Part shown: positions 11,432-34,881 of the stretch, one piece after another
Layout: each line of letters opens with the position of its first letter
How positions within the stretch are numbered: the stretch's first letter is position 1
Assembly: GCA_902564025.1 (NCBI GenBank)
Contig: CACEZK010000002.1
Span: forward strand, 15,227 to 79,226
DNA: 64,000 bases
Source of the DNA: an uncultured Pelagibacteraceae bacterium
Lineage (GTDB): Bacteria; Pseudomonadota; Alphaproteobacteria; Pelagibacterales; AG-422-B15
Direction: 5' to 3'
Program-made: the position numbers and the translations under genes
The notes under the pieces: generated by a model
What the model was told of the DNA's origin: nothing
The model's database searches: none
The model's input: only the letters and a program-made list of their open reading frames with translations

Positions 11432-11500
11432 ATTTAATTAGTGATCCTAGTCTTTTATTCTATAACATTAATTCGTGCAAAGAAAATATTCTGCATACAG

Positions 11501-22015: not shown

Positions 22016-22019
22016 GTAA

Positions 22020-22643
22020 ATGTTACCAAAAGATCTCATCAATAAATACAGAGACTGGAAAGAAAGCTCTTTCGCGCAAGAAAAAGATCACTTTGAAAGA
22101 CTTGCAAAAGAAGGTCAGTCACCTAAATACATGATCATATCGTGCGTAGATTCAAGGGTTGATCCGAATGCTATATTCAAATCAAAAGCTGGTGAAATGC
22201 TAGTTCATAGAAATATCGCTAATATAGTGCCACCCTATAGTCAATTAACGGAACATAGCGGAACAATTGCAGCTATCGAATTTGGTGTAACAGCATTAAA
22301 TATTAAAAATATTATTATAATTGGACACTCAGGATGTGGAGGTATCAAGAATGGGTATCATATGTGTCATGAAAATAATTTTGATGATAACTCATCTATT
22401 TCTAATTGGCTTAAGTTACTAAAACCAGTGTACGATAAAATTTCAGGCGAAGGAAACGATGAGAAAGTTAAGTACATGGAGAAAGAAAGCATTATCGTAT
22501 CATTAGAGAATTTAAGTAAATATCCCTTTATAAATACTGAAGTAAAGTCAGGTGAAATTATGCTTTATGGGGTTTGGAATGATATTGGATCTGGATTTAT
22601 AGAGACTTATGATTTTGAGAAAAAAAAGTTTGACTTGATTTAA
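22020..22643 (+). CDS. Beta-class carbonic anhydrase
   Basis: 207 aa. CVDSRV and GHSGCGG zinc-ligand motifs. Starts 4 nt after the DUF3604-like gene. Confidence 0.9.
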   Translation: MLPKDLINKYRDWKESSFAQEKDHFERLAKEGQSPKYMIISCVDSRVDPNAIFKSKAGEMLVHRNIANIVPPYSQLTEHSGTIAAIEFGVTALNIKNIIIIGHSGCGGIKNGYHMCHENNFDDNSSISNWLKLLKPVYDKISGEGNDEKVKYMEKESIIVSLENLSKYPFINTEVKSGEIMLYGVWNDIGSGFIETYDFEKKKFDLI

Positions 22644-22644
22644 T

Positions 22645-23292
22645 CTAATTTAATTTAAGAACTTCTGGAGAATATACAGAATTTAAATACTCCGGATGAT
22701 CAAGTTTCATTAATATTGAAGGACCATTTAGGGCAGAATCAGGTGTGCGATGAAGTATACCATTGCTACCACCGGTAAATATTGCAATGTTCCATTTATC
22801 AATAAAATTTAATTTACTTTTATCTCTAACGATCTTTTCATTTGGTTCACCTGCCTCATAGGCTAGACGGTCAGCATCCTGATTTTGTATCCATTCTGTA
22901 CCTTGTCCAGCATAAGTGACCAAAAGACGTCTTGGTACGTTATCAACATGATAACGTCTACACTCTCGTTTTGTCCCAAGCCAAAAGCAAAGTGTATCAG
23001 TTTTTTCAATCAGTAAGAATGTCCTGCAAACGGTTTCCATATCTGCAAGCCAATAATTATAAAACTCAGTTGAACTTAACTGGTTAGGAATTATTTCCTG
23101 GACCAAATTTTTTAAATCTTCTTTCAAATTAATTGAACTAAGAGTACCCTCAATTCCAAAGTCATTTTTCATTAATTTTTGAAAGAAAGAATCTGCACCT
23201 TCAGGTTGTTCACGCTCCAGTATACCTAATTTATAGTCTGTATCCTTGAATTCTTCTAAAGATTCTAGATTGTCAGCTTTAAATAAGCTCAT
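22645..23292 (-). CDS. Hypothetical protein, DUF1826-like, co-transcribed with znuA
   Basis: 215 aa, 18 nt downstream of znuA on the same strand. The family is suggested from context: DUF1826 genes are known neighbours of zinc-regulon genes. Not verifiable without an HMM search. Confidence 0.45.
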   Translation of the reverse strand: MSLFKADNLESLEEFKDTDYKLGILEREQPEGADSFFQKLMKNDFGIEGTLSSINLKEDLKNLVQEIIPNQLSSTEFYNYWLADMETVCRTFLLIEKTDTLCFWLGTKRECRRYHVDNVPRRLLVTYAGQGTEWIQNQDADRLAYEAGEPNEKIVRDKSKLNFIDKWNIAIFTGGSNGILHRTPDSALNGPSILMKLDHPEYLNSVYSPEVLKLN

Positions 23293-23310
23293 GAAAAATA
23301 TTTTTTAGAG

Positions 23311-24774
23311 TTAGCAACTTTCAAATGAAGAAGAGAGATCATTTATAAGTTCAAAATATAGATCTTTTCCTAATTCTAATTCTGCCCCTAGTGGATCGAT
23401 AACCGCGGCTTTTACACCTGTATCAGCTGCAATTGTCTCTGCAATAGTTGGGTTAAATTGTGGTTCAGAAAATAGACAATTAACATTTTCATGTTCAATA
23501 GCTTCTCTTATTTCAGATAATTGTTTTGCGCCTGGTAAAACTTCAGGATTAACAGTTAAAGCTCCAACAACTTCTATACCAAATCTTTTTTCGAAGTATT
23601 GATAAGCATCATGAAATACTACGTATTTAGCATTACTATTAATTTTACCCTTTGTAGCCGCTATTAATTGATCAATTTCAGATAAAGCTTTTGTCGCGTT
23701 TGAATTGTAAATTGACGCATTTGAGGGATCAAGTTCTGAAAGTTCACTAGATACAATCATTACAATTGTTTTTGCAATTTCAGGATCAAGCCAAAAGTGA
23801 ATATCAAATTCTCCATGCGCATGTCCGTGATGATGATCATGATGTCCAGAGTCTGGCTCTTGAGCAATAGGTTCGACATCGTTACCAGATAAATCCTTGA
23901 AAAAGTGTTCATCAGCTTCAAACTCAAATGGCATATGCTCTGTGAAGAATGCATATTTTCCAGCTTCTTTAATCTCAACGCTAAAAACTGTAGTTTCCCT
24001 ACTTTCGTCAAAATTTAACATGAAAGCTGAGTCATTGGCAGAAAGTGTACTACTATGATTTCTATCTGTTGAACTGCTTGATTCTAATAATTCTTCAGCT
24101 CTCTCTTCAGAGGACTCAATCTCATCAGACATAAGGATTACCATTTTCATCGCAGGGTCAGCATATTCACCACCTACTTTTGCAAATGACCAATTATAAG
24201 TTCCTTCAGTTAAGTCGAAAACTCCTGCCCATTCAAATCCATGATCGCCATGATCTCCGTGACCGTCTGCATGATCGTCACCATGTTCGTCTGCATGATC
24301 GTCATGTTCATCATGATCGTCACCATGTTCGTCTGCATGATCTTCATGTTCATCATGATCGTCACCATGTTCGTCTGCATGATCGTCATGATCGTCATGG
24401 TCTTCAAAGATATTTTTTTCTCTAAATTTTAATAGTTCGATTTCATCCGACTCCATCAATGCTATGTGCTTTGAATTTGTAGCTATTGATTCTAGAGGAG
24501 ACTCTAAAAATGATTCTAAGTCCTCGCCTATCCAAAAAATAATATCAGCTTCTTGCAACATTTCAGCGTGAGAGGGTTTAAGTTGGAAAGTATGTGGAGA
24601 GGAACTTCCATCTACAAGGATTCCTGGCTTGCCAACGCCATCCATCACGTAACTAACCAATGAATGCAATGGTTTAATTGAGGCAATAACTTTTGTTTCA
24701 GCGTTTGCAAACGATACGTAAGACAAAATAGATATAGTTGATAATATAAGTCCAAATTTAAGTTGTAATTTCAT
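23311..24774 (-). CDS. znuA: Zinc ABC transporter periplasmic binding protein ZnuA with a ~200-aa His/Asp-rich plus globular insertion
   Basis: 487 aa. Signal peptide, cluster-9 SBP core (IKPLHSLV, SPHTFQLKPS, FHDAYQYF, EPQF). Internal HDDHDDHADEHG... tract and GHHDHHHGHAHG. Divergent from znuCB-zur. Confidence 0.9.
   Translation of the reverse strand: MKLQLKFGLILSTISILSYVSFANAETKVIASIKPLHSLVSYVMDGVGKPGILVDGSSSPHTFQLKPSHAEMLQEADIIFWIGEDLESFLESPLESIATNSKHIALMESDEIELLKFREKNIFEDHDDHDDHADEHGDDHDEHEDHADEHGDDHDEHDDHADEHGDDHADGHGDHGDHGFEWAGVFDLTEGTYNWSFAKVGGEYADPAMKMVILMSDEIESSEERAEELLESSSSTDRNHSSTLSANDSAFMLNFDESRETTVFSVEIKEAGKYAFFTEHMPFEFEADEHFFKDLSGNDVEPIAQEPDSGHHDHHHGHAHGEFDIHFWLDPEIAKTIVMIVSSELSELDPSNASIYNSNATKALSEIDQLIAATKGKINSNAKYVVFHDAYQYFEKRFGIEVVGALTVNPEVLPGAKQLSEIREAIEHENVNCLFSEPQFNPTIAETIAADTGVKAAVIDPLGAELELGKDLYFELINDLSSSFESC
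24238..24402 (-). repeat. In-frame tandem repeat (~42-nt unit, about 3 copies) encoding DHADEHGDDHDEHE-type His/Asp tract in ZnuA
   Basis: catgatcgtcaccatgttcgtctgcatgatcgtcatgttcat recurs. It translates to HDDHDDHADEHGDDHDEHEDHADEHGDDHDEHDDHADEHGDDHADGHGDHGDHG. Confidence 0.85.
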
Positions 24775-24807
24775 AGATTTATTGCTTTCATTGTAAGTTG
24801 AAGATAG

Positions 24808-24822
24808 TGTTATAATATAACA
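24808..24822. promoter_or_regulatory. Candidate Zur box (perfect palindrome TGTTATAATATAACA) in the znuA / znuCB-zur divergent promoter
   Basis: 7-1-7 perfect inverted repeat, 34 nt from the znuA ATG and 24 nt from the znuC ATG. The identical 15-mer recurs at 30442-30456 and a variant at 26815-26829. Confidence 0.8.
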
Positions 24823-24845
24823 AATTATTTAATCAAGCTTTTTTT

Positions 24846-25595
24846 ATGAATACAAGTGATACTTTAGTAAGATTATCTAAGGCAGGAATTTATAAAGATA
24901 AAAAATGGCTTGTTCGAGATGTTGATTTAGAAATAAATAGAGGAAAAATTGTAACATTGATTGGCCCGAATGGTTCGGGTAAGACGACAACTGCAAAGAT
25001 AGCTTTGGGACTTTACAAAAGCATAAGTGGAAACGTTGAACGAAATACACAAAATATTTCATACGTACCTCAAAAAGTATCAATTGATTGGACTTTACCA
25101 GTGAGAGTTATTGACTTCATGGTATTAACGCAAAATCTTAAACAAGATGATATATTAGAAGCTCTAGATTTAACTGGTGTAAAGCATTTGAAGAGAAGCA
25201 ATCTTAGGGATTTATCTGGTGGAGAATTTCAACGAGTTTTATTAGCACGCGCTATAGCAAAAAAGCCTGACCTTTTGGTCTTAGACGAGCCCGTACAGGG
25301 AGTAGATTTTACAGGAGAAGTTGCTCTATATTCTCTAATAAAAGAAATTTCAGAGAAGTTAAATTGTGGAATTCTTTTAATTTCTCATGATTTACATGTA
25401 GTAATGTCTGCTACAGACTATGTGGTTTGTCTGAATGGACATGTTTGTTGTTGTGGAACACCTAAAGACGTTGCACAAAGTAAGTATTACAAAGAACTGT
25501 TTGGTGAGAAATCAGCTGAACTATTATCAATATATGAACATAATCATGATCATGTGCATTCCTCAGATGGTAACATTATAAAGGAAATAAAATAG
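24846..25595 (+). CDS. znuC: Zinc ABC transporter ATP-binding protein
   Basis: 249 aa. Walker A GPNGSGKTT, signature LSGGEFQRV, Walker B LLVLDEP, His-rich tail HNHDHVH. Confidence 0.9.
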   Translation: MNTSDTLVRLSKAGIYKDKKWLVRDVDLEINRGKIVTLIGPNGSGKTTTAKIALGLYKSISGNVERNTQNISYVPQKVSIDWTLPVRVIDFMVLTQNLKQDDILEALDLTGVKHLKRSNLRDLSGGEFQRVLLARAIAKKPDLLVLDEPVQGVDFTGEVALYSLIKEISEKLNCGILLISHDLHVVMSATDYVVCLNGHVCCCGTPKDVAQSKYYKELFGEKSAELLSIYEHNHDHVHSSDGNIIKEIK

Positions 25596-25597
25596 AT

Positions 25598-26398
25598 ATG
25601 TTAGATGATTTTCTAGTTAGAGCTATAATAGCTGGTATTGGTATAGCGCTCGTTACAGGACCACTTGGTTGCTTTGTTGTCTGGAGACGTTTATCTTTTT
25701 TTGGTGACACACTTGCTCATTCTGCATTACTAGGCGTCTTACTATCAATATCTTTAAATATAAACGTCTCATTAACAATTTTTGTTGTTTCATCTCTGGT
25801 TGCACTAATTTTACTTAGATTAGAAAAGTCAACGAATTTGGCTGGAGACTCTCTGCTTGGCTTAATTTCACATTCCTCATTAGCAATCGGATTAGTGATA
25901 CTGGGTTTTTTGTCTTTTATTAGATTCGATGTTTTAGGTGTATTATTTGGCGATATTCTCTCAGTAAACACTAATGACTTACTCTTTATTTGGATTGGTG
26001 GAGGATTGATACTTGCTGTCTTATTTTATATTTGGAAACCTTTATTTGCATCAACAGTCAATTATGAACTAGCTGAAGCAGAAGGCATGAACCCTGAAAG
26101 AGTAAATGCTATATTTACAATTTTATTAGCAGCTTTAATCGCTATATCAATCAAGATGATTGGCGTATTGCTTATCACTGGCCTATTGATCATACCAACA
26201 GCAATGGCTCGTAATTTATCGAACAATCCAAAGCAGATGGTTGTCCTATCAATAATTGGGGGATTGCTCTCTGTATTTATTGGATTATATGCATCATTTG
26301 AAATAAATACTGCTTCAGGGCCATCAATTGTTGTTGTTGCTCTAATTTTGTTTATCTTATCGTTATTAAGAATCGGTAAAAAGAATTATGAAAAATAA
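25598..26398 (+). CDS. znuB: Zinc ABC transporter permease
   Basis: 266 aa polytopic membrane protein of the ABC-3 type (FFGDTLAHSALLGV). Confidence 0.9.
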   Translation: MLDDFLVRAIIAGIGIALVTGPLGCFVVWRRLSFFGDTLAHSALLGVLLSISLNINVSLTIFVVSSLVALILLRLEKSTNLAGDSLLGLISHSSLAIGLVILGFLSFIRFDVLGVLFGDILSVNTNDLLFIWIGGGLILAVLFYIWKPLFASTVNYELAEAEGMNPERVNAIFTILLAALIAISIKMIGVLLITGLLIIPTAMARNLSNNPKQMVVLSIIGGLLSVFIGLYASFEINTASGPSIVVVALILFILSLLRIGKKNYEK

Positions 26399-26783
26399 GA
26401 AAAATGAATTAACTAAAAATCAAAAAATTGTCCTAGATTTCATTCAAAAAAGCAATAAACCAGTAAAGGCATATTCTATTTTGTCGAATGTTAGTAAAAA
26501 AGGATTGAAAGCTCCTCCTCAAGTTTATAGAGCTCTAGAAAAATTAATTGAAGTTGGTGAAGTTCATAAAATTGAAAGCCTCAATTCATTTGTGGCATGT
26601 AATTCAAAATGTATTGAACCAAATGGTACAATATTTTCAATCTGCAAAAGTTGTGATCAAACAACAGAAGTTAGTAATGCAGATCTTGCTAAATTTTTAT
26701 CAGATTTTAAGGATATGAATGGGACTCAATTTAGTGGATTCAATTTGGAATTATTTGGAACTTGCAAATCTTGCAAGACATGA
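26388..26783 (+). CDS. zur: Fur-family zinc uptake regulator
   Basis: 131 aa. N-terminal winged-helix region and C-terminal CxxC pairs (CKSCDQ...CKSCKT). Overlaps the znuB end by 11 nt, the znuCB-zur operon layout typical of alphaproteobacteria. Confidence 0.8.
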   Translation: MKNKKNELTKNQKIVLDFIQKSNKPVKAYSILSNVSKKGLKAPPQVYRALEKLIEVGEVHKIESLNSFVACNSKCIEPNGTIFSICKSCDQTTEVSNADLAKFLSDFKDMNGTQFSGFNLELFGTCKSCKT

Positions 26784-26814
26784 GGTTATCAAAGTAAATT
26801 GAAAATTTAAAAGG

Positions 26815-26829
26815 TGTTATAAAATAACA
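26815..26829. promoter_or_regulatory. Candidate Zur box (TGTTATAAAATAACA) upstream of the zrgA-like gene
   Basis: 6-3-6 palindrome with the same TGTTAT/ATAACA arms as the other two boxes. 66 nt upstream of the ATG at 26895. Confidence 0.7.
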
Positions 26830-26894
26830 TTTATCTAGACACGTAAAAATTTTTTAACTAAAATTTTTTCAATTAATCATACTAAGGAGTATAA

Positions 26895-27599
26895 ATGAGA
26901 AAAAATATTTACTATTCATTACTTTTATCAGCGCTAGTAACGGTCTCAGTAGCTGAAGAAACAAGGCAGGTTGATAAACACGAGCATGGAGTTGGTGAAT
27001 TAAATATTGCTGTAGAAGGAAATTCTATAGATCTAGAATTTATGATTCCAGGTGCGGATATAGTTGGTTTTGAGTATAAAGCAAAAAGTGAGGCTGATAT
27101 AGCTTTGGTTAAAGACGCTCTCATAAAATTTGACGAATTTAATAATATTTTTTCAATTCCTAGTGCCTCAAATTGTAATTTAGTTGAAGCTGACATAAGT
27201 ATTAATCAAGGCGATAATCACAAAGATGAACATAATCATGATGAACACGATGATCATGATGAACACGAAGATGATCATGATGAACACGATGATCATGATG
27301 AGCACGATGATCATGATGAACACGATGATCATGATGAACACGAAGATGAACATGATCATGACGATCATGGTGAGCACGACGATCATGACGAGCATGATGA
27401 AGAAGCTCATAACGAGTTTGTTGCACACTACTCATTTAATTGCGGAAATATAAAAGAAATTGACAGAATTAGCTTTCCATATTTTACTACTTTTCCAAAC
27501 TCTGGAGAACTTGAGGTACAATTTGTATCAGAGATTGGTTCGACAAGTTTTGAAGTGGAGGGAGATGAGCCTTTCATAGACTTAAAAGGAAAAATCTAA
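26895..27599 (+). CDS. zrgA: DUF2796/ZrgA-like periplasmic His/Asp-rich metal-binding protein
   Basis: 234 aa. Signal peptide, conserved HEHGVGELNIA start, central HKDEHNHDEHDDHDEHEDDHDEH... tract. Followed by ABC ATPase, FtsX-type permease and DUF3299, as in the ZrgABCD system of Vibrio. Confidence 0.7.
   Translation: MRKNIYYSLLLSALVTVSVAEETRQVDKHEHGVGELNIAVEGNSIDLEFMIPGADIVGFEYKAKSEADIALVKDALIKFDEFNNIFSIPSASNCNLVEADISINQGDNHKDEHNHDEHDDHDEHEDDHDEHDDHDEHDDHDEHDDHDEHEDEHDHDDHGEHDDHDEHDEEAHNEFVAHYSFNCGNIKEIDRISFPYFTTFPNSGELEVQFVSEIGSTSFEVEGDEPFIDLKGKI
27216..27410 (+). repeat. In-frame 12/24-nt periodic repeat encoding (HDDHDE)n
   Basis: gatgaacacgatgatcatgat units are repeated. They translate to HKDEHNHDEHDDHDEHEDDHDEHDDHDEHDDHDEHDDHDEHEDEHDHDDHGEHDDHDEHDEEAH. 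Confidence 0.85.
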
Positions 27600-28298
27600 T
27601 TGGATGAAAGTATAATTAAAATTGATTCAGTAAGATTTTATTGGTCAAAAAAAAGTAATTTCAAGATATTTGTTCCAAACCTAGAAATTAAAAAAGGTGA
27701 AAAAGTTCTCTTATTGGGAGAAAGCGGCTCAGGCAAAACCACACTCCTTTCCCTAATGTGTGGTTTTCTTAATCCATTATCTGGAAATATAAGTATTAAC
27801 GGTAACACTATTAACCAACTTTCATCTAAAACTAGGGATGAGTATCGTGCTGATAATATAGGAATTATTTTCCAACAATTTAACTTGCTGCCTTATGCAA
27901 ATGTTGTTGATAATGTTTTACTACCTTTATATTTTTCAAAAGTAAGATCAAACAACGTTTCCAACAAAAAAGAAAAGGTAATTGAACTTTTTAAACAATT
28001 GAGATTACCAGATGATATTGCACAATTTAGGGCAAGTAGTTTAAGTATGGGTCAGCAACAAAGAGTGGCAGTGGCTCGGGCACTAATTGGGAACCCATCG
28101 CTGATCATTGCTGACGAACCAACTTCCTCACTTGATGCAGATGCGCAAAAGATTTTTTTAAATTTGATGTTTGAACAAATTTCAGAGAATAACTCTACGT
28201 TATTGATGGTTTCACATGATAAATCGCTCTCTAATCAATTTGATCGATTAATTGACATAAACGAAATACTCATAAGGGAAGATAAGTCATGTTATTAA
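27600..28298 (+). CDS. zrgB: ABC transporter ATP-binding protein (MacB/LolD-type), ZrgB-like
   Basis: 232 aa. Walker A GESGSGKTT, signature LSMGQQQRV, Walker B LIIADEP. Apparent TTG start directly after the zrgA stop. Confidence 0.8.
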   Translation: MDESIIKIDSVRFYWSKKSNFKIFVPNLEIKKGEKVLLLGESGSGKTTLLSLMCGFLNPLSGNISINGNTINQLSSKTRDEYRADNIGIIFQQFNLLPYANVVDNVLLPLYFSKVRSNNVSNKKEKVIELFKQLRLPDDIAQFRASSLSMGQQQRVAVARALIGNPSLIIADEPTSSLDADAQKIFLNLMFEQISENNSTLLMVSHDKSLSNQFDRLIDINEILIREDKSCY

Positions 28299-29539
28299 AA
28301 CTTTCATTCAGTTCTCTTTATGCGCGCTTAGTTACTGTGGGTATGACAATTCTTGCAATTTCAGTATCCCTTATGCTTTATATGAGTGTAGAAAAGTTAA
28401 GAACTTCAGCATATACAAGTTTTACCGATACAATCTCACAGACTGATTTAATTGTTGGCGCAAGAGCTAGTTCAGTGCAACTGTTGTTATATTCAGTTTT
28501 TAGAATTGGAAACGCTACGAATAATATAACATGGGAGAGTTATTTAGACTTAGTGAGTAAAGAAGAAGTTGATTGGACAGTTCCAATTTCGTTGGGAGAT
28601 AGCCATAAGGGATTTAGAGTAATGGGTACCAACAAAGAATTTTTTTCTCGATATAAATATAGAGGTAATCAGTCTGTAAGTATTGATAAAGGTTATTTAT
28701 TTGAGGATCTATATGACGTCGTTTTGGGTGCTGGGGTTGCTGAAAAACTAGGATATAAAATCGGTACTTCACTTGTAGTTTCCCATGGACTAAAGTCTTT
28801 TTCAGATCACGATGATCAACCTTTTAGAGTATCAGGGATACTTAAAAAGACAGGAACACCTGTAGATAATACCGTAATCGTCAGCCTGGCTGCTATTGAA
28901 GCAATTCATGTTGATTGGTCAACTGGAGCTAAAATACCAGGACAACTAACACCTATTGATGAGATACGCGAAATGGATCTAACTCCTAAAAATATCACTG
29001 CTGCACTAGTAGGTGTTAAATCAAAATTAACTATCTTTCAACTTCAGCGCTGGATCAATGAGTATCCTGAAGAAGCGATGACTGCAATTCTTCCTGGCGC
29101 TGCACTGCAGGAGTTATGGCGAGTAGTTGGAGTGATTGAAAACTTATTATTAGGGATATCGGTGGTTGTAATATTCACAACACTCGTTGGGATGGCAGCG
29201 ATTATGTTTTCAAGTTTAAGTGAGAGAAGAAGAGAAATGGCAATCTGGAGAGCTATGGGTGCATCTCCTTTCACGGTGATTGGTTTATTAATGCTTGAAG
29301 CAATATTTATTTCAATTCTAAGTATTACATTCAGTGTAGTTTTATTATTTTGTGTGTTAAATTTATTACAACCATGGATTGATTACAATTATGGTATCTT
29401 AGTAAACATTGAAATGTTAGCTATAAAAGATATGTATGTTTTTGCTCTGTTTATCATTGCCTCAATAACAGTCAGTTTATTACCAGCAATAAGAGCCTAC
29501 TGGTTTTCTATTAATGATGGTATGACAATTAAATTATGA
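28289..29539 (+). CDS. zrgC: FtsX/MacB-type ABC permease, ZrgC-like
   Basis: 416 aa. N-terminal TM helix, large periplasmic domain, C-terminal 3-TM FtsX-like module. Overlaps both neighbours. Confidence 0.78.
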   Translation: MLLKLSFSSLYARLVTVGMTILAISVSLMLYMSVEKLRTSAYTSFTDTISQTDLIVGARASSVQLLLYSVFRIGNATNNITWESYLDLVSKEEVDWTVPISLGDSHKGFRVMGTNKEFFSRYKYRGNQSVSIDKGYLFEDLYDVVLGAGVAEKLGYKIGTSLVVSHGLKSFSDHDDQPFRVSGILKKTGTPVDNTVIVSLAAIEAIHVDWSTGAKIPGQLTPIDEIREMDLTPKNITAALVGVKSKLTIFQLQRWINEYPEEAMTAILPGAALQELWRVVGVIENLLLGISVVVIFTTLVGMAAIMFSSLSERRREMAIWRAMGASPFTVIGLLMLEAIFISILSITFSVVLLFCVLNLLQPWIDYNYGILVNIEMLAIKDMYVFALFIIASITVSLLPAIRAYWFSINDGMTIKL

Positions 29540-30000
29540 TTAAAAAATTAAAAATCTTTTTAATTATTTTTATTTTTATTCCGCTTTCTGCTTACTCAGC
29601 GCCAAAAGAAATAGACTGGGATGACCTAATACCATGGACATCCGTTTTTAGCCCCGGCGAGGTAAAGTTTAATAAAAATCTCGAAGATAAGGAAGTTAAG
29701 ATCCCTGGTTATGTTTTGCCATTGGATATGTACGGCCGTGGTATTAACACCTTTTTGTTAGTTCCATACATTGGAGCATGCATCCATGTCCCTCCACCAG
29801 CGCCTAATCAAATCGTTTATGTAGAAGCGGAGAATCCTTGGGAAGGTCTAGCCTGGTGGGAACCTGTTTACGTAACCGGAAAAATTAAAATTGAAAATCA
29901 AAATATTGAAGACCTTGCAATCGTTGGCTATGAATTAGCTGCAAACAATATCGAATATTATCGTGGTGAAACAGGGGTTCACGGATTCTTTGATTGGTAG
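29536..30000 (+). CDS. zrgD: DUF3299/ZrgD-like periplasmic protein
   Basis: 154 aa. Signal peptide and the signature FLLVPYIGACIHVPPPAPNQIVYV. Confidence 0.72.
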   Translation: MIKKLKIFLIIFIFIPLSAYSAPKEIDWDDLIPWTSVFSPGEVKFNKNLEDKEVKIPGYVLPLDMYGRGINTFLLVPYIGACIHVPPPAPNQIVYVEAENPWEGLAWWEPVYVTGKIKIENQNIEDLAIVGYELAANNIEYYRGETGVHGFFDW

Positions 30001-30004
30001 GATT

Positions 30005-30424
30005 TTACGAGTCTATTAACTTATCCTTAAAGTACTCAATTATATCTGATTTATAATCAAGAGGTGGGAATCTTCCAATAATATTTGATTGATAGTTCCT
30101 TGGTCTATCTCTTCTTCTGAGAAACCCATCTTTAGCTTTTGTATACGATGATACTAACTTTTTTAGAGATGAAATATATAATGGTTTTTTTGGGTCTATA
30201 TCTCCAAAAACGTAAGTAAAACGCTTATCGGCAGACAGAGAGATTGCACAAGACCGCTTGCAGCAACTCATACAATTTACACCTCTGATGATAACGTCAT
30301 CTTGTCTTTTGAAACTGTTCACAATTTTTTTTGCAAAGCGCTCGCCTCCTCGAGAATTATATTGTTCTTCTCGTCCATCTCGACAAGTTAAACAGATCGA
30401 TAAAACAGGTTTAGTGTTGCTCAT
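30005..30424 (-). CDS. DUF1636-like Cys-rich metal-binding protein
   Basis: 139 aa. Cys pattern CLTC...CMSCCKRSC. Divergent from the COG0523 gene across a Zur-box-containing gap. Confidence 0.55.
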   Translation of the reverse strand: MSNTKPVLSICLTCRDGREEQYNSRGGERFAKKIVNSFKRQDDVIIRGVNCMSCCKRSCAISLSADKRFTYVFGDIDPKKPLYISSLKKLVSSYTKAKDGFLRRRDRPRNYQSNIIGRFPPLDYKSDIIEYFKDKLIDS

Positions 30425-30441
30425 AAATTGCTAAATTTAAT

Positions 30442-30456
30442 GTTATAATATAACAA
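30442..30456. promoter_or_regulatory. Candidate Zur box (TGTTATAATATAACA) in the DUF1636-like / COG0523 divergent promoter
   Basis: Identical 15-mer to 24808-24822. 18 nt from the minus-strand ATG (30424) and 62 nt from the plus-strand ATG (30518). Confidence 0.8.
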
Positions 30457-30517
30457 CTTGTATAATGCTTTTTTTTTAATTACAAGGTATGTTTAAAAAA
30501 AACTAATTTTGTAAAAT

Positions 30518-31492
30518 ATGGAAAATAGTTCATCGCAAGTACCAGTCACTGTATTAACAGGTTTTTTAGGAGCAGGTAAAACTACTTTATTAAATCGTAT
30601 TTTAACTGAGCAACACGGTCGTCGTTATGCTGTAATTGTTAATGAGTTTGGTGAGCAAGGAATAGACAATGATCTCGTAGTTGATGCTGATGAAGAAGTT
30701 TTTGAAATGAACAATGGATGTATTTGTTGCACAGTTAGGGGTGATTTAATACGTATACTTGGAGGTCTGATGAAGCGTGCAGATCAGCTGGATGCAATAA
30801 TTGTAGAGACAACTGGACTTGCTGACCCTGCGCCCGTTGCTCAAACATTTTTTGTCGATCAAGATGTTGCAGACCGAACTAAATTAGACGCTATTGTCAC
30901 TGTCGCAGATGCTGTCCACCTTAGTTCTCAACTAGGAGAACATCATGAGGCTGAAGAGCAAATTGCTTTTGCAGATGTAGTACTGCTCAATAAGATTGAT
31001 TTAGTTGATCAAAGTCAGATTACCGGCGTTAAGGATCGCATTCGAAAAATTAATCCTTATACAAAAATAATTGAAACAAACAGATGTGCGGCTCCTCTTG
31101 ATGAAGTTCTTGGTCTTAATGCTTTTAGTCTTGATCGCGTCTTAGAGGTTGAACCTGATTTTTTGGACTCCGATCATGATCATGAACATGATGACGATGT
31201 TACCAGTGTTTCTTTTGTTTCTGACACTCCGCTTGACTTAGAAAAATTTGAGAAGTGGTTTGGAAACCTATTACAGACGCATGGTCAAAATATTCTTAGA
31301 TCAAAGGGCATTCTTGATTTTAAGAATGAAAAAGATCGCTACGTATTTCAAGGGGTTCATATGCTCATGGATGCATCTCCTATGGGTCCATGGCCTGAGA
31401 AAAGTATTCGAAATTCCCGGGTTGTATTTATTGGTCGCAAATTAGAGACAATGAATTTGAAAGAGGGCTTCGAAAGTTGTAAATCAGATTAG
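30518..31492 (+). CDS. COG0523-family G3E GTPase metallochaperone (ZigA/ZagA/YeiR-like)
   Basis: 324 aa. Walker A GFLGAGKTTLLN, metal-binding GCICCT (CxCC), ETTGLADP, NKIDL, linker DSDHDHEHDDD. Confidence 0.9.
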   Translation: MENSSSQVPVTVLTGFLGAGKTTLLNRILTEQHGRRYAVIVNEFGEQGIDNDLVVDADEEVFEMNNGCICCTVRGDLIRILGGLMKRADQLDAIIVETTGLADPAPVAQTFFVDQDVADRTKLDAIVTVADAVHLSSQLGEHHEAEEQIAFADVVLLNKIDLVDQSQITGVKDRIRKINPYTKIIETNRCAAPLDEVLGLNAFSLDRVLEVEPDFLDSDHDHEHDDDVTSVSFVSDTPLDLEKFEKWFGNLLQTHGQNILRSKGILDFKNEKDRYVFQGVHMLMDASPMGPWPEKSIRNSRVVFIGRKLETMNLKEGFESCKSD

Positions 31493-31503
31493 TTCTGCTT
31501 TAG

Positions 31504-32523
31504 ATGAATAACGAATCTGTCATAAAATCCCGCTTTGAAGAAAATGGAAAGGTCTTTGAAACAGGCGCTCCTGTTACAGGTGCAGTTTCAATAGAGAATG
31601 CTGTTGCAGTTGGATTTGGAGACGGATCAATAAGGTTTTTTTGGCCAGATAATGATCCCTTAGAAGTTCGAGCTCACTCTGGTGCAATACTAAGCATAGC
31701 TTCAAGTAATGATGGGGTCATAACAGGCGGGCAAGATGGTCGTTTTTTAAAAATATCGACAAATGCTGAGGTCGAGGAAATTTACAATTTTGGAACGCGT
31801 TGGGTAGATAATGTAGCGGCATATGAAAGTATGGTTTTATGTTCATCTGGAAAAAATGTCTACATCTGGTCAGATGAAAATGATAAGCCAAAAATATTAG
31901 AGCATCAAAGTACGATAGGTGGTATCGCAATTGATCAAAATGGAAGGAGAATTGCTGTCTCATGTTATGGAGGAGTAACTTTGTGGAGATTAGAAAAAAA
32001 CAAATGGAAATCATCAAAATTTGCTTGGAAAGGTTCACACGGTAAAGTTGGGTTTAGTCCAGATGGGAAGTATCTGGTGACAACAATGCAAGAAAATGAG
32101 CTTCATGCTTGGCGAATTCGAGATAAAGCAAGTTTTGCAATGTCAGGTTACCCGTCAAAAGTAAAAAGTTTTACATGGGCCGGGGACAACCCTTATCTAG
32201 TAACAGCGGGTGCAAAAGAAGCTATATGCTGGCCATTCGATGGTAAGGAGGGTCCAAAAGGACGTAAGCCCCTTTGCATTGCAAGTGGTGGTCAACAAAA
32301 CGCAACTTTTGTTGAATCATTGCCAGGGGAGAAAGCAGTTTTTGCTGGATTTCGAAATGGCATGGTTCTTCTCTCAGAATTATCAGAACATCCAAATGAC
32401 GTCCTCATTCAAAATCCTACAGGATCAGAAGTATCAAATATTAGTATTTCACCCGATCGATCACATATATTAGTCGGAGACTCAAAAGGCCAAATTTTAT
32501 GGTCACCTCTTTGGGAGCAGTAA
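31504..32523 (+). CDS. WD40/beta-propeller repeat protein
   Basis: 339 aa with about 7 recurring ~40-aa units: HSGAILSIASSNDGVITGGQDGRFLKI, GVTLWRL, ELHAWRI, ...ILWSPLW. 11 nt after the COG0523 gene. Confidence 0.7.
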   Translation: MNNESVIKSRFEENGKVFETGAPVTGAVSIENAVAVGFGDGSIRFFWPDNDPLEVRAHSGAILSIASSNDGVITGGQDGRFLKISTNAEVEEIYNFGTRWVDNVAAYESMVLCSSGKNVYIWSDENDKPKILEHQSTIGGIAIDQNGRRIAVSCYGGVTLWRLEKNKWKSSKFAWKGSHGKVGFSPDGKYLVTTMQENELHAWRIRDKASFAMSGYPSKVKSFTWAGDNPYLVTAGAKEAICWPFDGKEGPKGRKPLCIASGGQQNATFVESLPGEKAVFAGFRNGMVLLSELSEHPNDVLIQNPTGSEVSNISISPDRSHILVGDSKGQILWSPLWEQ

Positions 32524-32524
32524 A

Positions 32525-32791
32525 ATGGAGGGTATGTTTAAGAAAAAAAAATCAAATAAAAGTGCTACTCAAAATTTAAAAAATCTAATCATAGAGAAAT
32601 TTAGATTAAATGAAGATACTACTGTAAGCATTGCTGAACTAAGCTGTCATGAACCAAATTGCCCACCAAAAGAAACAATTATTACGATTCATAAAGCTAA
32701 AGGAATTACTTCCAACTTACGCATTCATAAACCTCTAAATCAGATAAAGAGAGAAGACGTTGAGACATTAAAACGTGAAGAAAATTTTTAA
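32525..32791 (+). CDS. Small hypothetical protein with CHEPNCPP motif
   Basis: 88 aa. Starts 1 nt after the WD40 stop, so likely translationally coupled. Cys-x5-Cys plus His could ligate metal. Confidence 0.5.
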   Translation: MEGMFKKKKSNKSATQNLKNLIIEKFRLNEDTTVSIAELSCHEPNCPPKETIITIHKAKGITSNLRIHKPLNQIKREDVETLKREENF

Positions 32792-32793
32792 TC

Positions 32794-32825
32794 TTTTCGG
32801 TGCCAGTACAACCGTACCGAAAGGA
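32794..32825. terminator. Hairpin between convergent small ORFs (candidate bidirectional terminator)
   Basis: CTTTTCGGT (32794-32802) pairs with ACCGAAAGG (32817-32825): 9 bp including one G-U, with a 14-nt loop. A weak T-run follows on the plus strand. Confidence 0.4.
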
Positions 32826-32827
32826 TT

Positions 32828-33007
32828 TTAGCCACTAATGGAGAAAAACATCAAGCCAAGAAAACCTGTCGCGATCACAAAGCTTGATAAAAGTTTAGGG
32901 GTTCTAGAAAGTTTAAGCTTTGTGGTTGAAGGAATAATCACGAGAGTCGACTCACCGTTATAGGATTGTCTTCTTATGTACTGAGGCTTCATTTTCGACT
33001 TTTTCAT
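32828..33007 (-). CDS. Possible 59-aa tail-anchored small membrane protein (below ORF-track cutoff)
   Basis: Own translation: MKKSKMKPQYIRRQSYNGESTLVIIPSTTKLKLSRTPKLLSSFVIATGFLGLMFFSISG. Basic N-terminus and hydrophobic C-terminal helix. It fills an otherwise empty 320-nt gap. Confidence 0.3.
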   Translation of the reverse strand: MKKSKMKPQYIRRQSYNGESTLVIIPSTTKLKLSRTPKLLSSFVIATGFLGLMFFSISG

Positions 33008-33112
33008 GTTTGATAAATATGTACCTAAAAAGCAAGGCTTAATTTTGATAAAAATATGTTCAAAACAAGATAGAAGTGTTTATTTTCAAAAATTTGCTGA
33101 TATAAGAGACCG

Positions 33113-34807: not shown

Positions 34808-34881
34808 GCCCCTATCGCTTAATAGTAAAGCAGGTCATTGGTAATGATCAGCCGCTGGAGCGTAACCAGCTAGGGGCACCA
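34808..34881 (+). tRNA. tRNA-like cloverleaf, formally tRNA-Thr(GGT) with encoded ACCA but non-canonical D and T loops
   Basis: GCCCCTA TC GCTT AATAGTA AAGC A GGTCA TTGGTAA TGATC AGCC GCTGG AGCGTAA CCAGC TAGGGGC A CCA. All four stems pair (21 bp, one G-U). The T loop is AGCGTAA rather than TTCRANY, and the D loop lacks GG. Confidence 0.55.

What the first reader, a model, noticed from the sequence alone, without database searches (positions are those of the whole stretch)
24808..30456. Three near-identical TGTTAT-N3-ATAACA palindromes define a compact Zur regulon island
- The 15-mer TGTTATAATATAACA occurs twice exactly (24808-24822 and 30442-30456). TGTTATAAAATAACA occurs once (26815-26829).
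- Each sits in one of the three promoter gaps of this block and within 18-66 nt of a start codon. The gaps are znuA<>znuCB-zur, upstream of the zrgA-like gene, and DUF1636-like<>COG0523.
- The arms match the AT-rich palindromic Fur/Zur-box architecture known from other bacteria, and the cognate zur gene is encoded in the same block.
- Together they predict coordinated zinc-starvation control of two importers plus a metallochaperone module, about 10 kb of a streamlined genome.
Basis: partly seen in the sequence, partly recalled or inferred. Interest (0 to 1): 0.6.

Follow-up and report, generated by a model that had tools for sequence, protein, structure and literature searches.

The report
Zinc-repressor binding sites in SAR11
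Three copies of a 15-base palindrome mark the DNA sites where the zinc sensor Zur most likely shuts off about 10 kb of zinc-scavenging genes in an abundant ocean bacterium (SAR11); it is a well-supported but ordinary example of a textbook regulatory motif.

Summary
TGTTATNNNATAACA occurs exactly three times in the window, at 24808-22, 26815-29 and 30441-55. About 0.04 matches are expected by chance. A matrix built only from other SAR11 lineages scores these sites 21.6-25.4 bits, and the next best position scores 6.6 bits.

The gene calls hold: znuA-DUF1826 <> znuCB-zur, zrgA-ABC-DUF3299, and DUF1636 <> COG0523-WD40-orf88. The organism is a Pelagibacteraceae (SAR11) bacterium.

- **Conservation:** across 80 SAR11 species loci (1.33 Mb), all 102 exact copies lie in the same promoter gaps or upstream of a SaoD/DsrE-like gene. 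The box is present upstream of znuC in 71 of 72 loci.
- **Operon fusion:** where a box is missing, the genes are fused into an operon that has one.
- **Known motif:** the core equals the proteobacterial Zur box (GTTA-N5-TAAC; gamma consensus AATGTTATAWTATAACATT). It is identical to the predicted Zur site of the Vibrio zrgABCDE operon.
- **Regulator:** the local Zur keeps the residues aligned with E. coli Zur's two base-reading residues, Tyr45 and Arg65.

Verdict: these are Zur operators, a new member of a known kind. Zinc-dependent binding and restriction of the regulon to this island remain untested.

The parts
24808..24822 (.). Zur box 1 (TGTTATAATATAACA) in the 71-nt znuA<>znuC gap. It contains TGnTATAAT on the + strand and TGnTATATT on the - strand.
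   Evidence: 25.4 bits. A box is conserved at this position in 71 of 72 SAR11 species loci.
26815..26829 (.). Zur box 2 (TGTTATAAAATAACA), 31 nt after the zur stop codon and 65 nt upstream of zrgA.
   Evidence: 21.6 bits. Conserved upstream of zrgA in 19 of 21 loci. The two exceptions have zrgA fused to zur.
30441..30455 (.). Zur box 3 (TGTTATAATATAACA) in the DUF1636<>COG0523 gap.
   Evidence: 24.7 bits. Retained in L022 (CGTTATAATATAACA) although the flanks are unrelated.
23311..24774 (-). znuA, the periplasmic zinc-binding protein (487 aa). It carries a His/Asp-rich repeat and an insert of about 190 aa.
   Evidence: PF01297 199 bits. NCBIfam ZnuA 267.2 bits against a cut-off of 268.
22645..23292 (-). 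DUF1826 gene, 18 nt downstream of znuA and probably in the same operon.
   Evidence: PF08856. It stays next to znuA in lineages where it is only 50-53% identical. DUF1826 appears in the legend of Haas et al.'s figure of Zur-regulated COG0523 gene clusters (PMC2770081).
24846..25595 (+). znuC (ABC ATPase).
   Evidence: NCBIfam ZnuC is the top hit at 269.9 bits, below the cut-off of 306.
25598..26398 (+). znuB (ABC-3 permease).
   Evidence: PF00950 227 bits. ZnuB is the top NCBIfam hit.
26388..26783 (+). zur (131 aa). It is the last gene of the znuCB-zur operon and overlaps znuB by 11 nt.
   Evidence: PF01475 at 24.4 bits against a cut-off of 23.1. The top NCBIfam hit is Zur. The best solved structures are Xanthomonas Zur 7dh7 and E. 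coli Zur 4mtd.
26836..26864 (+). Predicted zrgA promoter, TAGACA-17-TAAAAT. It starts 6 nt after box 2.
   Evidence: 10 of 12 matches. Both hexamers are conserved across lineages. No transcription-start data are available.
26895..27599 (+). zrgA (zinc-binding protein with an Asp/His-rich repeat).
   Evidence: NCBIfam ZrgA equivalog 206 bits against a cut-off of 185. PF10986 150 bits.
27600..28298 (+). ABC ATPase of the zrg operon.
   Evidence: PF00005. It abuts zrgA.
28289..29539 (+). MacB/FtsX-type permease of the zrg operon.
   Evidence: PF12704 and PF02687.
29536..30000 (+). DUF3299 protein (ZrgE-like).
   Evidence: PF11736 116 bits. ZrgE of Vibrio is a DUF3299 protein (PMC9817125).
30005..30424 (-). 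DUF1636 Cys-rich protein, transcribed divergently from box 3.
   Evidence: PF07845 87.5 bits. It is found only in the closest lineages.
30518..31492 (+). COG0523 GTPase (putative zinc metallochaperone). It has a GAGKTT Walker A motif, a CICC motif and a His/Asp-rich linker.
   Evidence: PF02492 and PF07683. The closest solved structure is E. coli YjiA at 1.9e-56.
31504..32523 (+). WD40 beta-propeller protein, 11 nt after COG0523.
   Evidence: It travels with COG0523 in every arrangement seen. COG0523-WD40 clustering is noted in PMC2770081.
32525..32791 (+). 88-aa ORF with a CHEPNC motif, the last gene of the COG0523 operon.
   Evidence: No family hit. It is co-inherited with COG0523-WD40 down to 49% identity.

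Best explanation
The three palindromes are operators for the Zur repressor encoded in the same block.

**Proposed mechanism (inferred).** When zinc is sufficient, a Zn-loaded Zur dimer binds each GTTAT-N3-ATAAC core and blocks RNA polymerase. When zinc falls, Zur loses its sensing-site zinc and leaves the DNA. Five transcription units are then de-repressed together:
- znuA-DUF1826
- znuC-znuB-zur, which makes zur negatively autoregulated
- zrgA-ATPase-permease-DUF3299
- DUF1636
- COG0523-WD40-orf88

**How each box would act (inferred from sequence only).**
- Boxes 1 and 3 sit in divergent gaps. They themselves read TGnTATAAT on one strand and TGnTATATT on the other. One palindrome probably serves as the -10 element for both directions and as the operator.
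- Box 2 lies 6 nt upstream of a conserved TAGACA-17-TAAAAT promoter. It would have to repress by reaching into the -35/UP region.

**What is shown.** The sites, their rarity, their conservation, the gene identities and the conservation of Zur's DNA-reading residues.

**What is inferred.** Zur binding, zinc dependence, the promoter positions and the operon boundaries.
For: 1. **Statistics.** There are 3 exact sites against 0.04 expected. No intermediate sites exist. A matrix independent of this strain leaves a 15-bit gap to the next best position.
2. **Footprinting over 80 SAR11 species loci (1.33 Mb, Zur identity 99 to 55%).** There are 102 exact and 48 one-mismatch sites. Every exact site lies in a promoter gap of znuA/znuC, zrgA or DUF1636/COG0523, or upstream of a SaoD/DsrE-like gene. 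Only 2 one-mismatch sites are off-target. GTTATA-N-TATAAC is at least 95% conserved while the flanks diverge. The core carries 1.0-2.3 bits per position, except 0.4 at the central base, against 0.1-0.5 in the flanks.
3. **Operon-fusion logic.**
   - zrgA without a box is fused to zur (L034, L044).
   - COG0523 without a box follows DUF3299 (L011, L015) or znuA (L063, L065, L067, L068).
4. **Identity with the known motif.**
   - The gamma consensus is GAAATGTTATANTATAACATTTC, or AATGTTATAWTATAACATT in its 19-bp form (PMC2706843; PMC3516566).
   - GTTA-5N-TAAC was used to search for Zur sites in Caulobacter (PMC4176598).
   - The Vibrio parahaemolyticus zrgABCDE site is TGAGTGTTATATTATAACACCCG (PMC9817125).
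   - In a sample of metagenome contigs from diverse taxa, the same 15-mer often lies next to znuA, zur or znuC.
5. **Regulator.** The best matches are Zur proteins. The Cys4 structural site is present, as are His60, Cys71 and Glu94, which align with E. coli His77, Cys88 and Glu111. Tyr29 and Arg48 align with the base-contacting Tyr45 and Arg65 of E. coli Zur (PMC4219657).
6. **Target genes.** They are classic Zur-regulon members (PMC6103462; PMC2770081).
Against: - No binding or expression data exist for this organism.
- The Zur protein scores far below NCBIfam's Zur equivalog cut-off (61.5 against 167 bits).
- This strain's Zur has Asn79 where E. coli has the ligand His96.
- Box 2 lies upstream of the predicted -35 element. 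In Caulobacter and Streptomyces that position is associated with activation rather than repression.
- DUF1636's link to the regulon rests on one shared box in closely related strains only.
- Whether further boxes exist elsewhere in this genome could not be tested.
Confidence: 0.85

Rival explanations
1. The local Fur-family protein binds the boxes but senses manganese or another metal (a Mur/Fur-like regulator). The block would then be a Mn or mixed Mn/Zn uptake regulon rather than a zinc one.
For: - A 2026 preprint labels the SAR11 system 'Znu-like Mn2+/Zn2+' and finds it anti-correlated with the Mn exporter MntP.
- The Zur protein is below the equivalog cut-off and lacks one His ligand in this strain.
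- Hogle et al. caution that the substrate is unproven.
Against: - ZnuA scores 267 bits to the ZnuA equivalog but only 100 bits to MntC.
- ZnuA and ZrgA carry long His/Asp-rich stretches. By general knowledge these are a feature of zinc-specific binding proteins.
- ZrgA passes its zinc-uptake equivalog cut-off.
- COG0523 and DUF1826 are Zur-regulon markers.
- The box is the Zur box, not the Fur/Mur box.
- The residues aligned with E. coli Zur's Cys-containing sensing site and with its base-reading Tyr45 are present.
Confidence: 0.07
2. The palindromes are only promoter elements (AT-rich -10 / extended -10 sequences shared by divergent promoters) with no dedicated repressor, or they are chance AT-rich palindromes.
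For: - Boxes 1 and 3 contain perfect TGnTATAAT / TGnTATATT.
- The genome is about 34% G+C, so TA-rich words are common.
- The best non-island hit (11453-11467) lies 22 nt upstream of a tRNA gene and looks like a -10 element.
Against: - A -10 element does not need a palindromic partner or the strictly conserved G and C positions.
- Box 2 has no T at the last -10 position and has its own promoter downstream.
- The motif occurs at no other promoter in 64 kb, nor in the surveyed flanks of 80 related loci apart from a SaoD/DsrE-like gene in nine of them.
- Chance expectation is 0.04.
Confidence: 0.04
3. The palindromes act at the RNA level, as hairpins, terminators or attenuators.
For: Each can form a 6-bp stem with a 3-nt loop. 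Box 2 follows the zur stop codon by 31 nt.
Against: - Predicted stabilities are only -2.0 to -5.6 kcal/mol, with z-scores of -0.2 to -1.1 against shuffles.
- No terminator-like site was called there.
- Natural variants change one arm without compensation (CGTTAT...ATAACA, TGTAAT...ATAACA, TGTTAT...GTAACA).
- Boxes 1 and 3 lie in divergent gaps, where they would largely be upstream of the transcripts.
Confidence: 0.02

Closest known systems
Gammaproteobacterial Zur box (GAAATGTTATA-N-TATAACATTTC; 19-bp form AATGTTATAWTATAACATT), as footprinted in Yersinia pestis and crystallised with E. coli Zur on the znuABC operator
   Same: - The same 7-1-7 palindrome. The SAR11 consensus derived here (TAATGTTATAATATAACATTA) contains the 19-bp form exactly.
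- The same placement in a znuA<>znuC(B) divergent gap.
- The SAR11 residues aligned with the base-reading Tyr45 and Arg65 are identical.
   Different: - The host is an alphaproteobacterium.
- Outside the 15-bp core the flanks are barely conserved.
- The Asp49/Arg52 salt bridge behind E. coli's dimer-of-dimers binding is replaced by Ser33/Ser36. One dimer per box is therefore more likely.
- Distant SAR11 clades instead carry two boxes 18 bp apart.
- zur is inside the regulated operon.
Vibrio ZnuABC + ZrgABCDE dual zinc importers under Zur
   Same: - Two importers, both with a Zur site.
- The predicted Vibrio parahaemolyticus zrg site has the core TGTTATATTATAACA.
- ZrgA passes the equivalog cut-off, and a DUF3299 (ZrgE-like) protein is present.
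   Different: - No ZrgD (DUF2607) is present.
- In Vibrio the two systems are at separate loci, going by their locus tags. Here they are adjacent and joined to zur and a COG0523 module in one 10-kb block.
Alphaproteobacterial Zur boxes (Agrobacterium group GTAATGTAATAACATTAC; Rhodobacter group GATATGTTATAACATATC; Caulobacter GTTA-N5-TAAC)
   Same: - AT-rich inverted repeats built on GTTA/TAAC half-sites.
- The Caulobacter core spacing (GTTA-5N-TAAC) is the same as here.
   Different: The Agrobacterium- and Rhodobacter-group consensus boxes place the half-sites 5 bp closer together. The SAR11 box does not match them.
Zur-regulated COG0523 clusters (Haas et al. 2009), including the subfamily that clusters with WD40 proteins and znuABC
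   Same: A COG0523 GTPase with a CxCC motif lies downstream of a Zur site, next to a WD40 gene and znuABC. DUF1826 is in the same neighbourhood.
   Different: - The subfamily assignment was not tested here.
- The additional conserved 88-aa ORF and the divergent DUF1636 gene do not appear in the passages of that paper retrieved here.

Membership tests
Proteobacterial Zur box | An inverted repeat with a GTTA-N5-TAAC core that matches the published consensus. | tested here: met
   All three sites carry GTTAT-N3-ATAAC. The lineage-independent consensus equals AATGTTATAWTATAACATT.
Proteobacterial Zur box | Conserved upstream of orthologous zinc-uptake genes and rare elsewhere. | tested here: met
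   Present in 71 of 72 znuC and 19 of 21 zrgA upstream regions. All 102 exact copies lie in promoter gaps: the three kinds in the window, or upstream of a SaoD/DsrE-like gene in nine loci. Only 2 one-mismatch sites are off-target in 1.33 Mb. No other site occurs in the window.
Proteobacterial Zur box | Overlaps the -35/-10 elements of the repressed promoter. | tested here: inconclusive
   Boxes 1 and 3 contain TGnTATAAT / TGnTATATT. Box 2 ends 6 nt before a conserved -35 element. No transcription start sites are available.
Proteobacterial Zur box | Bound by Zur in a zinc-dependent way. | not testable with these tools
   This needs EMSA or footprinting.
Zur (Fur-family zinc sensor) | Fur-family fold, with Zur proteins as the closest relatives. 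| tested here: met
   PF01475 scores 24.4 bits against a cut-off of 23.1. The top NCBIfam hit is Zur. The top PDB hits are Xanthomonas Zur 7dh7 (7e-18), E. coli Zur 4mtd, and the M. tuberculosis (2o03) and S. coelicolor (3mwm) Zur proteins (organism names partly from memory).
Zur (Fur-family zinc sensor) | Reaches NCBIfam's Zur equivalog score. | tested here: not met
   61.5 bits against a cut-off of 167. The protein is short (131 aa) and divergent.
Zur (Fur-family zinc sensor) | A structural Cys4 zinc site plus a sensing site equivalent to E. coli His77, Cys88, His96 and Glu111.
   The Cys4 site is present (C86, C89, C126, C129), as are H60, C71 and E94. The position aligned with His96 is Asn79 in this strain but His in most SAR11 homologues.
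Zur (Fur-family zinc sensor) | The base-contacting residues Tyr45 and Arg65 of Gram-negative Zur. | tested here: met
   Tyr29 and Arg48 align with them and are invariant in 13 SAR11 homologues.
ZnuABC | A ZnuA-type binding protein, an ABC-3 permease and an ATPase, adjacent to one another. | tested here: met
   PF01297 and PF00950 are matched. The ZnuA, ZnuB and ZnuC equivalogs are the top hits, all below cut-off (267/268, 229/284 and 270/306 bits).
ZrgABCDE | ZrgA together with an ABC ATPase, a permease and DUF3299 (ZrgE). | tested here: met
   The ZrgA equivalog scores 206 bits against a cut-off of 185. DUF3299 scores 116 bits.
ZrgABCDE | ZrgD (DUF2607) is present. | tested here: not met
   No such gene lies in 26895-30000. 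ZrgD is also absent in V. fischeri and P. profundum.
Zur-regulated COG0523 metallochaperone | CobW/CobW_C domains, a Walker A motif, a CxCC motif and a Zur site upstream. | tested here: met
   PF02492 and PF07683 are matched. GAGKTT and CICC are read in the translation. Box 3 lies 62 nt upstream. The ZigA equivalog is not reached (196 against 600 bits).

The most novel reading that the evidence does not exclude
In this SAR11 lineage the whole zinc-starvation response may be packed into one 10-kb cassette. Its three 15-bp palindromes would act as operator and, at boxes 1 and 3, as the shared -10 element of two divergent promoters.

The cassette also appears to be exchanged between lineages by recombination. 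Alleles only 73-78% identical sit in genomes that are otherwise 96-98% identical. Some breakpoints lie in or next to the His/Asp-rich repeats of znuA and zrgA, which are inverted copies of each other. Modules such as DUF1636-COG0523-WD40-orf88 are gained or lost. If so, zinc acquisition would be a swappable niche-defining trait in the ocean's most abundant heterotroph.
Probability: 0.3. Interest if true: 0.5.

Novelty: new member of a known kind. Interest (0 to 1): 0.3.

Why it matters
**Ecological context.** By general knowledge, SAR11 is among the most abundant bacteria in the sea and has very few transcriptional regulators. Hogle et al. 2016 noted that high-affinity zinc uptake is the one metal-acquisition trait SAR11 has kept. 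They also noted that znuABC sits beside a Fur-family gene. No paper in the searched library describes the operator or the regulon.

**What the boxes provide.**
- They give a concrete, testable zinc-starvation regulon.
- Transcripts of its genes could be tested as reporters of zinc stress in ocean metatranscriptomes.

**Uncharacterised genes placed under zinc control.**
- DUF1826
- DUF1636
- a WD40 protein
- an 88-aa Cys-motif protein
- a SaoD/DsrE-family protein, in other lineages only

The mechanism itself is textbook, so the value is in annotation and ecology rather than in a new principle.

Tried and rejected
- **RNA hairpin or terminator reading.** The folds are weak and no better than shuffles, and no terminator was called. 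Rejected.
- **Purine-NNN-pyrimidine skeletons of E. coli Zur.** The boxes fit RNNNYxxxRNNNY, but that pattern occurs 57 times per kb here, so it carries no weight. The E. coli 20-mer TGWNAYRWTATAWYRTNWCA does not match any of the three sites.
- **Metagenome scan for the exact 15-mer.** It returned contigs from many taxa (24-70% G+C). Many have the motif beside znuA, zur or znuC. That supports 'generic Zur box' but does not give a SAR11 genome-wide regulon.
- **Genome-wide scan of the source genome.** Not possible.
- **Rfam over the whole window.** Only tRNAs were found. Nothing was found in the island or in the 32792-33112 gap.
- **Pfam on the ZnuA insert, and NCBIfam on DUF1826, WD40, orf88 and DUF3604.** No hits.
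- **Neighbouring metallopeptidases as COG0523 clients.** The M24 and M20 genes at 16556-18888 were considered. The M24 protein looks like ectoine hydrolase DoeA (436 bits). The idea is unsupported and was dropped.
- **Other near-matches in the window.**
  - 11453-11467 lies 22 nt upstream of tRNA-Phe and looks like a -10 element.
  - 60622-60636 lies inside a coding ORF.
  - 26652-26666 encodes CDQTT inside zur.
  - None of these is a credible site.

Full report
**Observation**

A pattern search finds TGTTATNNNATAACA exactly three times in the 64-kb window, at 24808-24822, 26815-26829 and 30441-30455. About 0.04 matches are expected from dinucleotide-preserving shuffles, and none of 100 shuffles reached three. 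The sequences are as stated.

Relaxing to three mismatches against TGTTATAWTATAACA adds no two-mismatch site. It adds only four three-mismatch sites, which is the chance rate. The three copies are therefore a discrete class, not the top of a continuum.

**Genes**

| Coordinates | Strand | Gene |
|---|---|---|
| 22645-23292 | - | DUF1826 |
| 23311-24774 | - | znuA |
| 24846-25595 | + | znuC |
| 25598-26398 | + | znuB |
| 26388-26783 | + | Fur-family gene, best match Zur |
| 26895-27599 | + | zrgA (NCBIfam equivalog passed, 206 against 185 bits) |
| 27600-28298 | + | ABC ATPase |
| 28289-29539 | + | MacB/FtsX permease |
| 29536-30000 | + | DUF3299 (ZrgE-like) |
| 30005-30424 | - | DUF1636 |
| 30518-31492 | + | COG0523 GTPase |
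| 31504-32523 | + | WD40 protein |
| 32525-32791 | + | 88-aa ORF |

Gaps within each same-strand run range from an 11-nt overlap to 18 nt. The exception is the 111-nt zur-zrgA gap that holds box 2. This gives five likely transcription units spanning 22645-32791, about 10.1 kb.

- Box 1 is 33 nt from the znuA start codon and 23 nt from the znuC start codon.
- Box 2 is 65 nt from the zrgA start codon.
- Box 3 is 16 nt from the DUF1636 start codon and 62 nt from the COG0523 start codon.

**Organism**

The exact Zur protein is encoded on many marine metagenome contigs with the same gene order. Its homologues, and the 80 genome loci recovered with it, are all Pelagibacteraceae/Pelagibacterales. The single-cell genome AG-404-P01 is 99% identical in Zur and 98.2% identical in DNA over 18.4 kb. 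The 'streamlined genome' remark is therefore apt.

**Phylogenetic footprinting**

I scanned 80 loci from different SAR11 species representatives (1.33 Mb; Zur identity from 99% down to 55%). The scan found 102 exact and 48 one-mismatch copies of the pattern.

- **Location.** Every exact copy lies in one of four places: the znuA<>znuC gap, upstream of zrgA, upstream of COG0523 (with or without DUF1636), or upstream of a 125-aa gene. That gene is absent from the window and is a SaoD/DsrE-family protein (NF040913, 199.8 bits). Only two one-mismatch copies fall elsewhere.
- **Coverage.** A box with at most one mismatch precedes znuC in 71 of 72 loci that include the region. The exception is a mis-called start. 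A box precedes zrgA in 19 of 21 loci.
- **Conservation profile.** In alignments of the intergenic regions, GTTATA-N-TATAAC is at least 95% conserved while the neighbouring bases vary freely. Information content is 1.0-2.3 bits per position across the 15-bp core, except 0.4 at the central base. It is 0.1-0.5 bits in the flanks.
- **Independent matrix.** A matrix built only from lineages other than the window's own strain group recovers the three window sites at 25.4, 24.7 and 21.6 bits. The next best position scores 6.6 bits.

The third, zinc-dependent expression, could not be tested.

**Operon-fusion evidence**

The exceptions are informative.

- In L034 and L044, zrgA follows zur directly with no box.
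- In L011 and L015, COG0523-WD40-orf88 follows DUF3299 with no box and no DUF1636.
- In L063, L065, L067 and L068, COG0523-WD40-orf88 lies downstream of znuA on the other strand.
- In L022, COG0523 has its own box (CGTTATAATATAACA) within unrelated flanks.

Whatever the arrangement, each of these genes is either preceded by a box or embedded in an operon that is. This is what a single regulon predicts. DUF1826 stays next to znuA in lineages where it is only 50-53% identical.

**What the motif is**

- The published gammaproteobacterial Zur box is GAAATGTTATANTATAACATTTC. Its 19-bp form is AATGTTATAWTATAACATT. It was confirmed by footprinting in Yersinia pestis (PMC2706843) and used in Acinetobacter (PMC3516566).
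- Caulobacter Zur sites were found with GTTA-5N-TAAC, described as conserved in many proteobacteria (PMC4176598).
- The predicted Zur site of the Vibrio parahaemolyticus zrgABCDE operon is TGAGTGTTATATTATAACACCCG (PMC9817125).
- The SAR11 consensus derived here, TAATGTTATAATATAACATTA, contains the 19-bp form exactly.
- It does not match the Agrobacterium-group (GTAATGTAATAACATTAC) or Rhodobacter-group (GATATGTTATAACATATC) boxes, whose half-sites are 5 bp closer together.
- A capped metagenome scan for the exact 15-mer returned contigs from many taxa (24-70% G+C). Many carry the motif beside znuA, zur or znuC homologues.

**The regulator**

The 131-aa protein passes the Pfam FUR threshold narrowly. 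Zur is its best NCBIfam model, although it is far below the equivalog cut-off (61.5 against 167 bits). Its best matches among solved structures are Zur proteins: Xanthomonas 7dh7 at 7e-18 and E. coli 4mtd at 1.6e-9.

Reading the alignment to E. coli Zur gives the following.

- Tyr29 and Arg48 correspond to Tyr45 and Arg65. In the crystal structure these are the only two residues that hydrogen-bond to bases, and Tyr45 is thought to discriminate Zur sites from Fur sites (PMC4219657). Both are invariant in 13 SAR11 homologues.
- The Cys4 structural site is present (C86, C89, C126, C129).
- Three of the four sensing ligands are present (H60, C71, E94). The ligand numbering for E. coli Zur is recalled from memory, not retrieved here.
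- The fourth sensing position is Asn79 here but His in most SAR11 homologues.
- The Asp49/Arg52 salt bridge that supports E. coli's dimer-of-dimers binding is Ser33/Ser36 here.

Together with the unconserved flanks, this suggests one dimer per box (inference). The more distant SAR11 clades instead carry two boxes, usually 18 bp apart, in the znuA<>znuC gap.

**Mechanism**

The following is inferred from established Zur biology (PMC6103462). Zn-Zur binds the boxes and blocks transcription initiation. Zinc depletion releases it. Because zur is the last gene of the znuCB-zur unit, it would be negatively autoregulated.

Sequence detail adds a refinement.

- Boxes 1 and 3, both in divergent gaps, read TGTTATAAT on the top strand and TGTTATATT on the bottom strand. 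These are extended -10 elements in both directions. One palindrome may therefore serve as promoter core for two operons and as operator.
- Box 2, which serves one direction only, has AAA at its centre. That removes the final T of a top-strand -10 element.
- Box 2 is followed at a fixed 6-nt distance by TAGACA-17-TAAAAT. Both hexamers are conserved across lineages.
- A site just upstream of -35 is more usual for activation. How box 2 represses is therefore the least secure step. Options are a footprint reaching -35, UP-element occlusion or oligomerisation. Transcription start mapping is needed.

**Rivals**

- **RNA hairpin or terminator.** Excluded by weak, shuffle-like folding energies, by the absence of a terminator call and by uncompensated one-arm variants.
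- **Promoter only.** This fails to explain the palindromy, the invariant G/C positions and the motif's absence from all other promoters surveyed, apart from one further gene family in other lineages.
- **Another metal.** A Mn-sensing regulator with a Mn/Zn transporter cannot be excluded without experiments. A recent preprint uses the label Mn2+/Zn2+. The ZnuA and ZrgA scores, the His/Asp-rich loops, the COG0523/DUF1826 partners and the Zur-type DNA-reading and sensing residues all favour zinc.

**Comparison and novelty**

This is a Zur box and a Zur regulon of the classical kind. The gene content (ZnuABC, ZrgABC-E, COG0523 with WD40, DUF1826) matches what is known from Vibrio and from the comparative study of Haas et al.. 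For SAR11, Hogle et al. 2016 had already reported conserved znuA synteny with a Fur-family gene. None of the full-text searches found a description of the operator or the regulon. I therefore class it as a new member of a known kind.

Its use is practical. It offers a defined zinc-starvation regulon for the most abundant marine heterotroph, and several uncharacterised proteins newly tied to zinc.

**Limits**

- There are no binding or expression data.
- The source genome could not be scanned as a whole, so 'compact' is shown only for the 64-kb window and the flanks of related loci.
- Other lineages do have one further target, the SaoD/DsrE-like gene.
- DUF1636's membership rests on close relatives only.

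**Seen in passing**

The island is a recombination mosaic.

- Against the window, L013 is about 98% identical in both flanks but 77% identical across 24264-27328.
- L011, L037 and L040 are 73-78% identical across 24240-29999, in backgrounds that are 93-98% identical.
- DUF3604 and the DUF1636-COG0523-WD40-orf88 module are present or absent depending on the strain.
- Some breakpoints lie in or next to the His/Asp-coding repeats of znuA and zrgA. These repeats are inverted copies of each other about 2.9 kb apart.

Noticed in passing
window 23805-29999, compared with L011, L013, L037 and L040: The zinc island is a recombination mosaic. The flanks are 93-98% identical between genomes, but the segment from the znuA 5' half through znuCB-zur to zrgA (or on to DUF3299) is only 73-78% identical. 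Some breakpoints lie in or next to the His/Asp-rich repeats.
   Followed up: partly
window 24239-24418 and 27187-27408: The His/Asp-coding tandem repeats of znuA (12/18-nt period, minus strand) and zrgA (9-nt period, plus strand) are inverted repeats of each other. Arms 24266-24363 and 27249-27346 are 70% complementary and lie 2.9 kb apart. Their length varies between strains: ZnuA is 465-487 aa and ZrgA is 209-234 aa.
   Followed up: partly
window 23311-24774 (ZnuA residues ~115-305): ZnuA carries an insert of about 190 aa. Beyond the His/Asp-rich stretch, a segment of about 150 aa has no Pfam match. In more distant SAR11 lineages the blastp match to znuA covers less than half of the window protein, and the space left for the gene implies a much shorter ZnuA.
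   Followed up: partly
L035 10466-10881; L057 6829-7275; L071 and L084 6888-7322 (not in the window): A 125-aa SaoD/DsrE-family protein (NF040913, 199.8 bits) is preceded by one or two exact Zur boxes in nine SAR11 species loci. It is a candidate extra regulon member of unknown function.
   Followed up: partly
window 20087-22643: The DUF3604 and beta-carbonic-anhydrase genes abut the island and stay next to it in some lineages where they are only 55-70% identical (for example L022, L048 and L010). They have no Zur box. DUF3604 is deleted in some near-identical strains (L008, L013, L014).
   Followed up: partly
window 32792-33112: A 320-nt non-coding gap after orf88, with longer G+C-containing stretches than the other gaps, has no Rfam match. 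The corresponding gap ranges from about 0.3 to 2.5 kb among otherwise near-identical strains.
   Followed up: partly
window 34808-34878 (+): Rfam calls a tRNA here (50.9 bits), directly after the ABC-2 permease gene. ARAGORN does not report it.
   Followed up: no
window 26622-26624 (Zur codon 79): This strain's Zur has Asn at the position aligned with the E. coli sensing ligand His96. Most SAR11 homologues have His and some have Arg. A nearby Cys75 is invariant.
   Followed up: partly
L049-L086, znuA<>znuC gaps: Distant SAR11 clades carry two boxes in tandem, TGTTATAATATAACA followed by TGTAATAATATAACA. They are 18 bp apart start to start in 19 cases.
   Followed up: partly
window 24775-24795: The stretch TTTATTGCTTTCAT, between the znuA start codon and box 1, is conserved across lineages with Zur identity down to about 63%. 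On the minus strand it holds an upstream ATG whose reading frame relative to znuA is not constant between lineages. The conservation is therefore probably at the DNA or RNA level.
   Followed up: no
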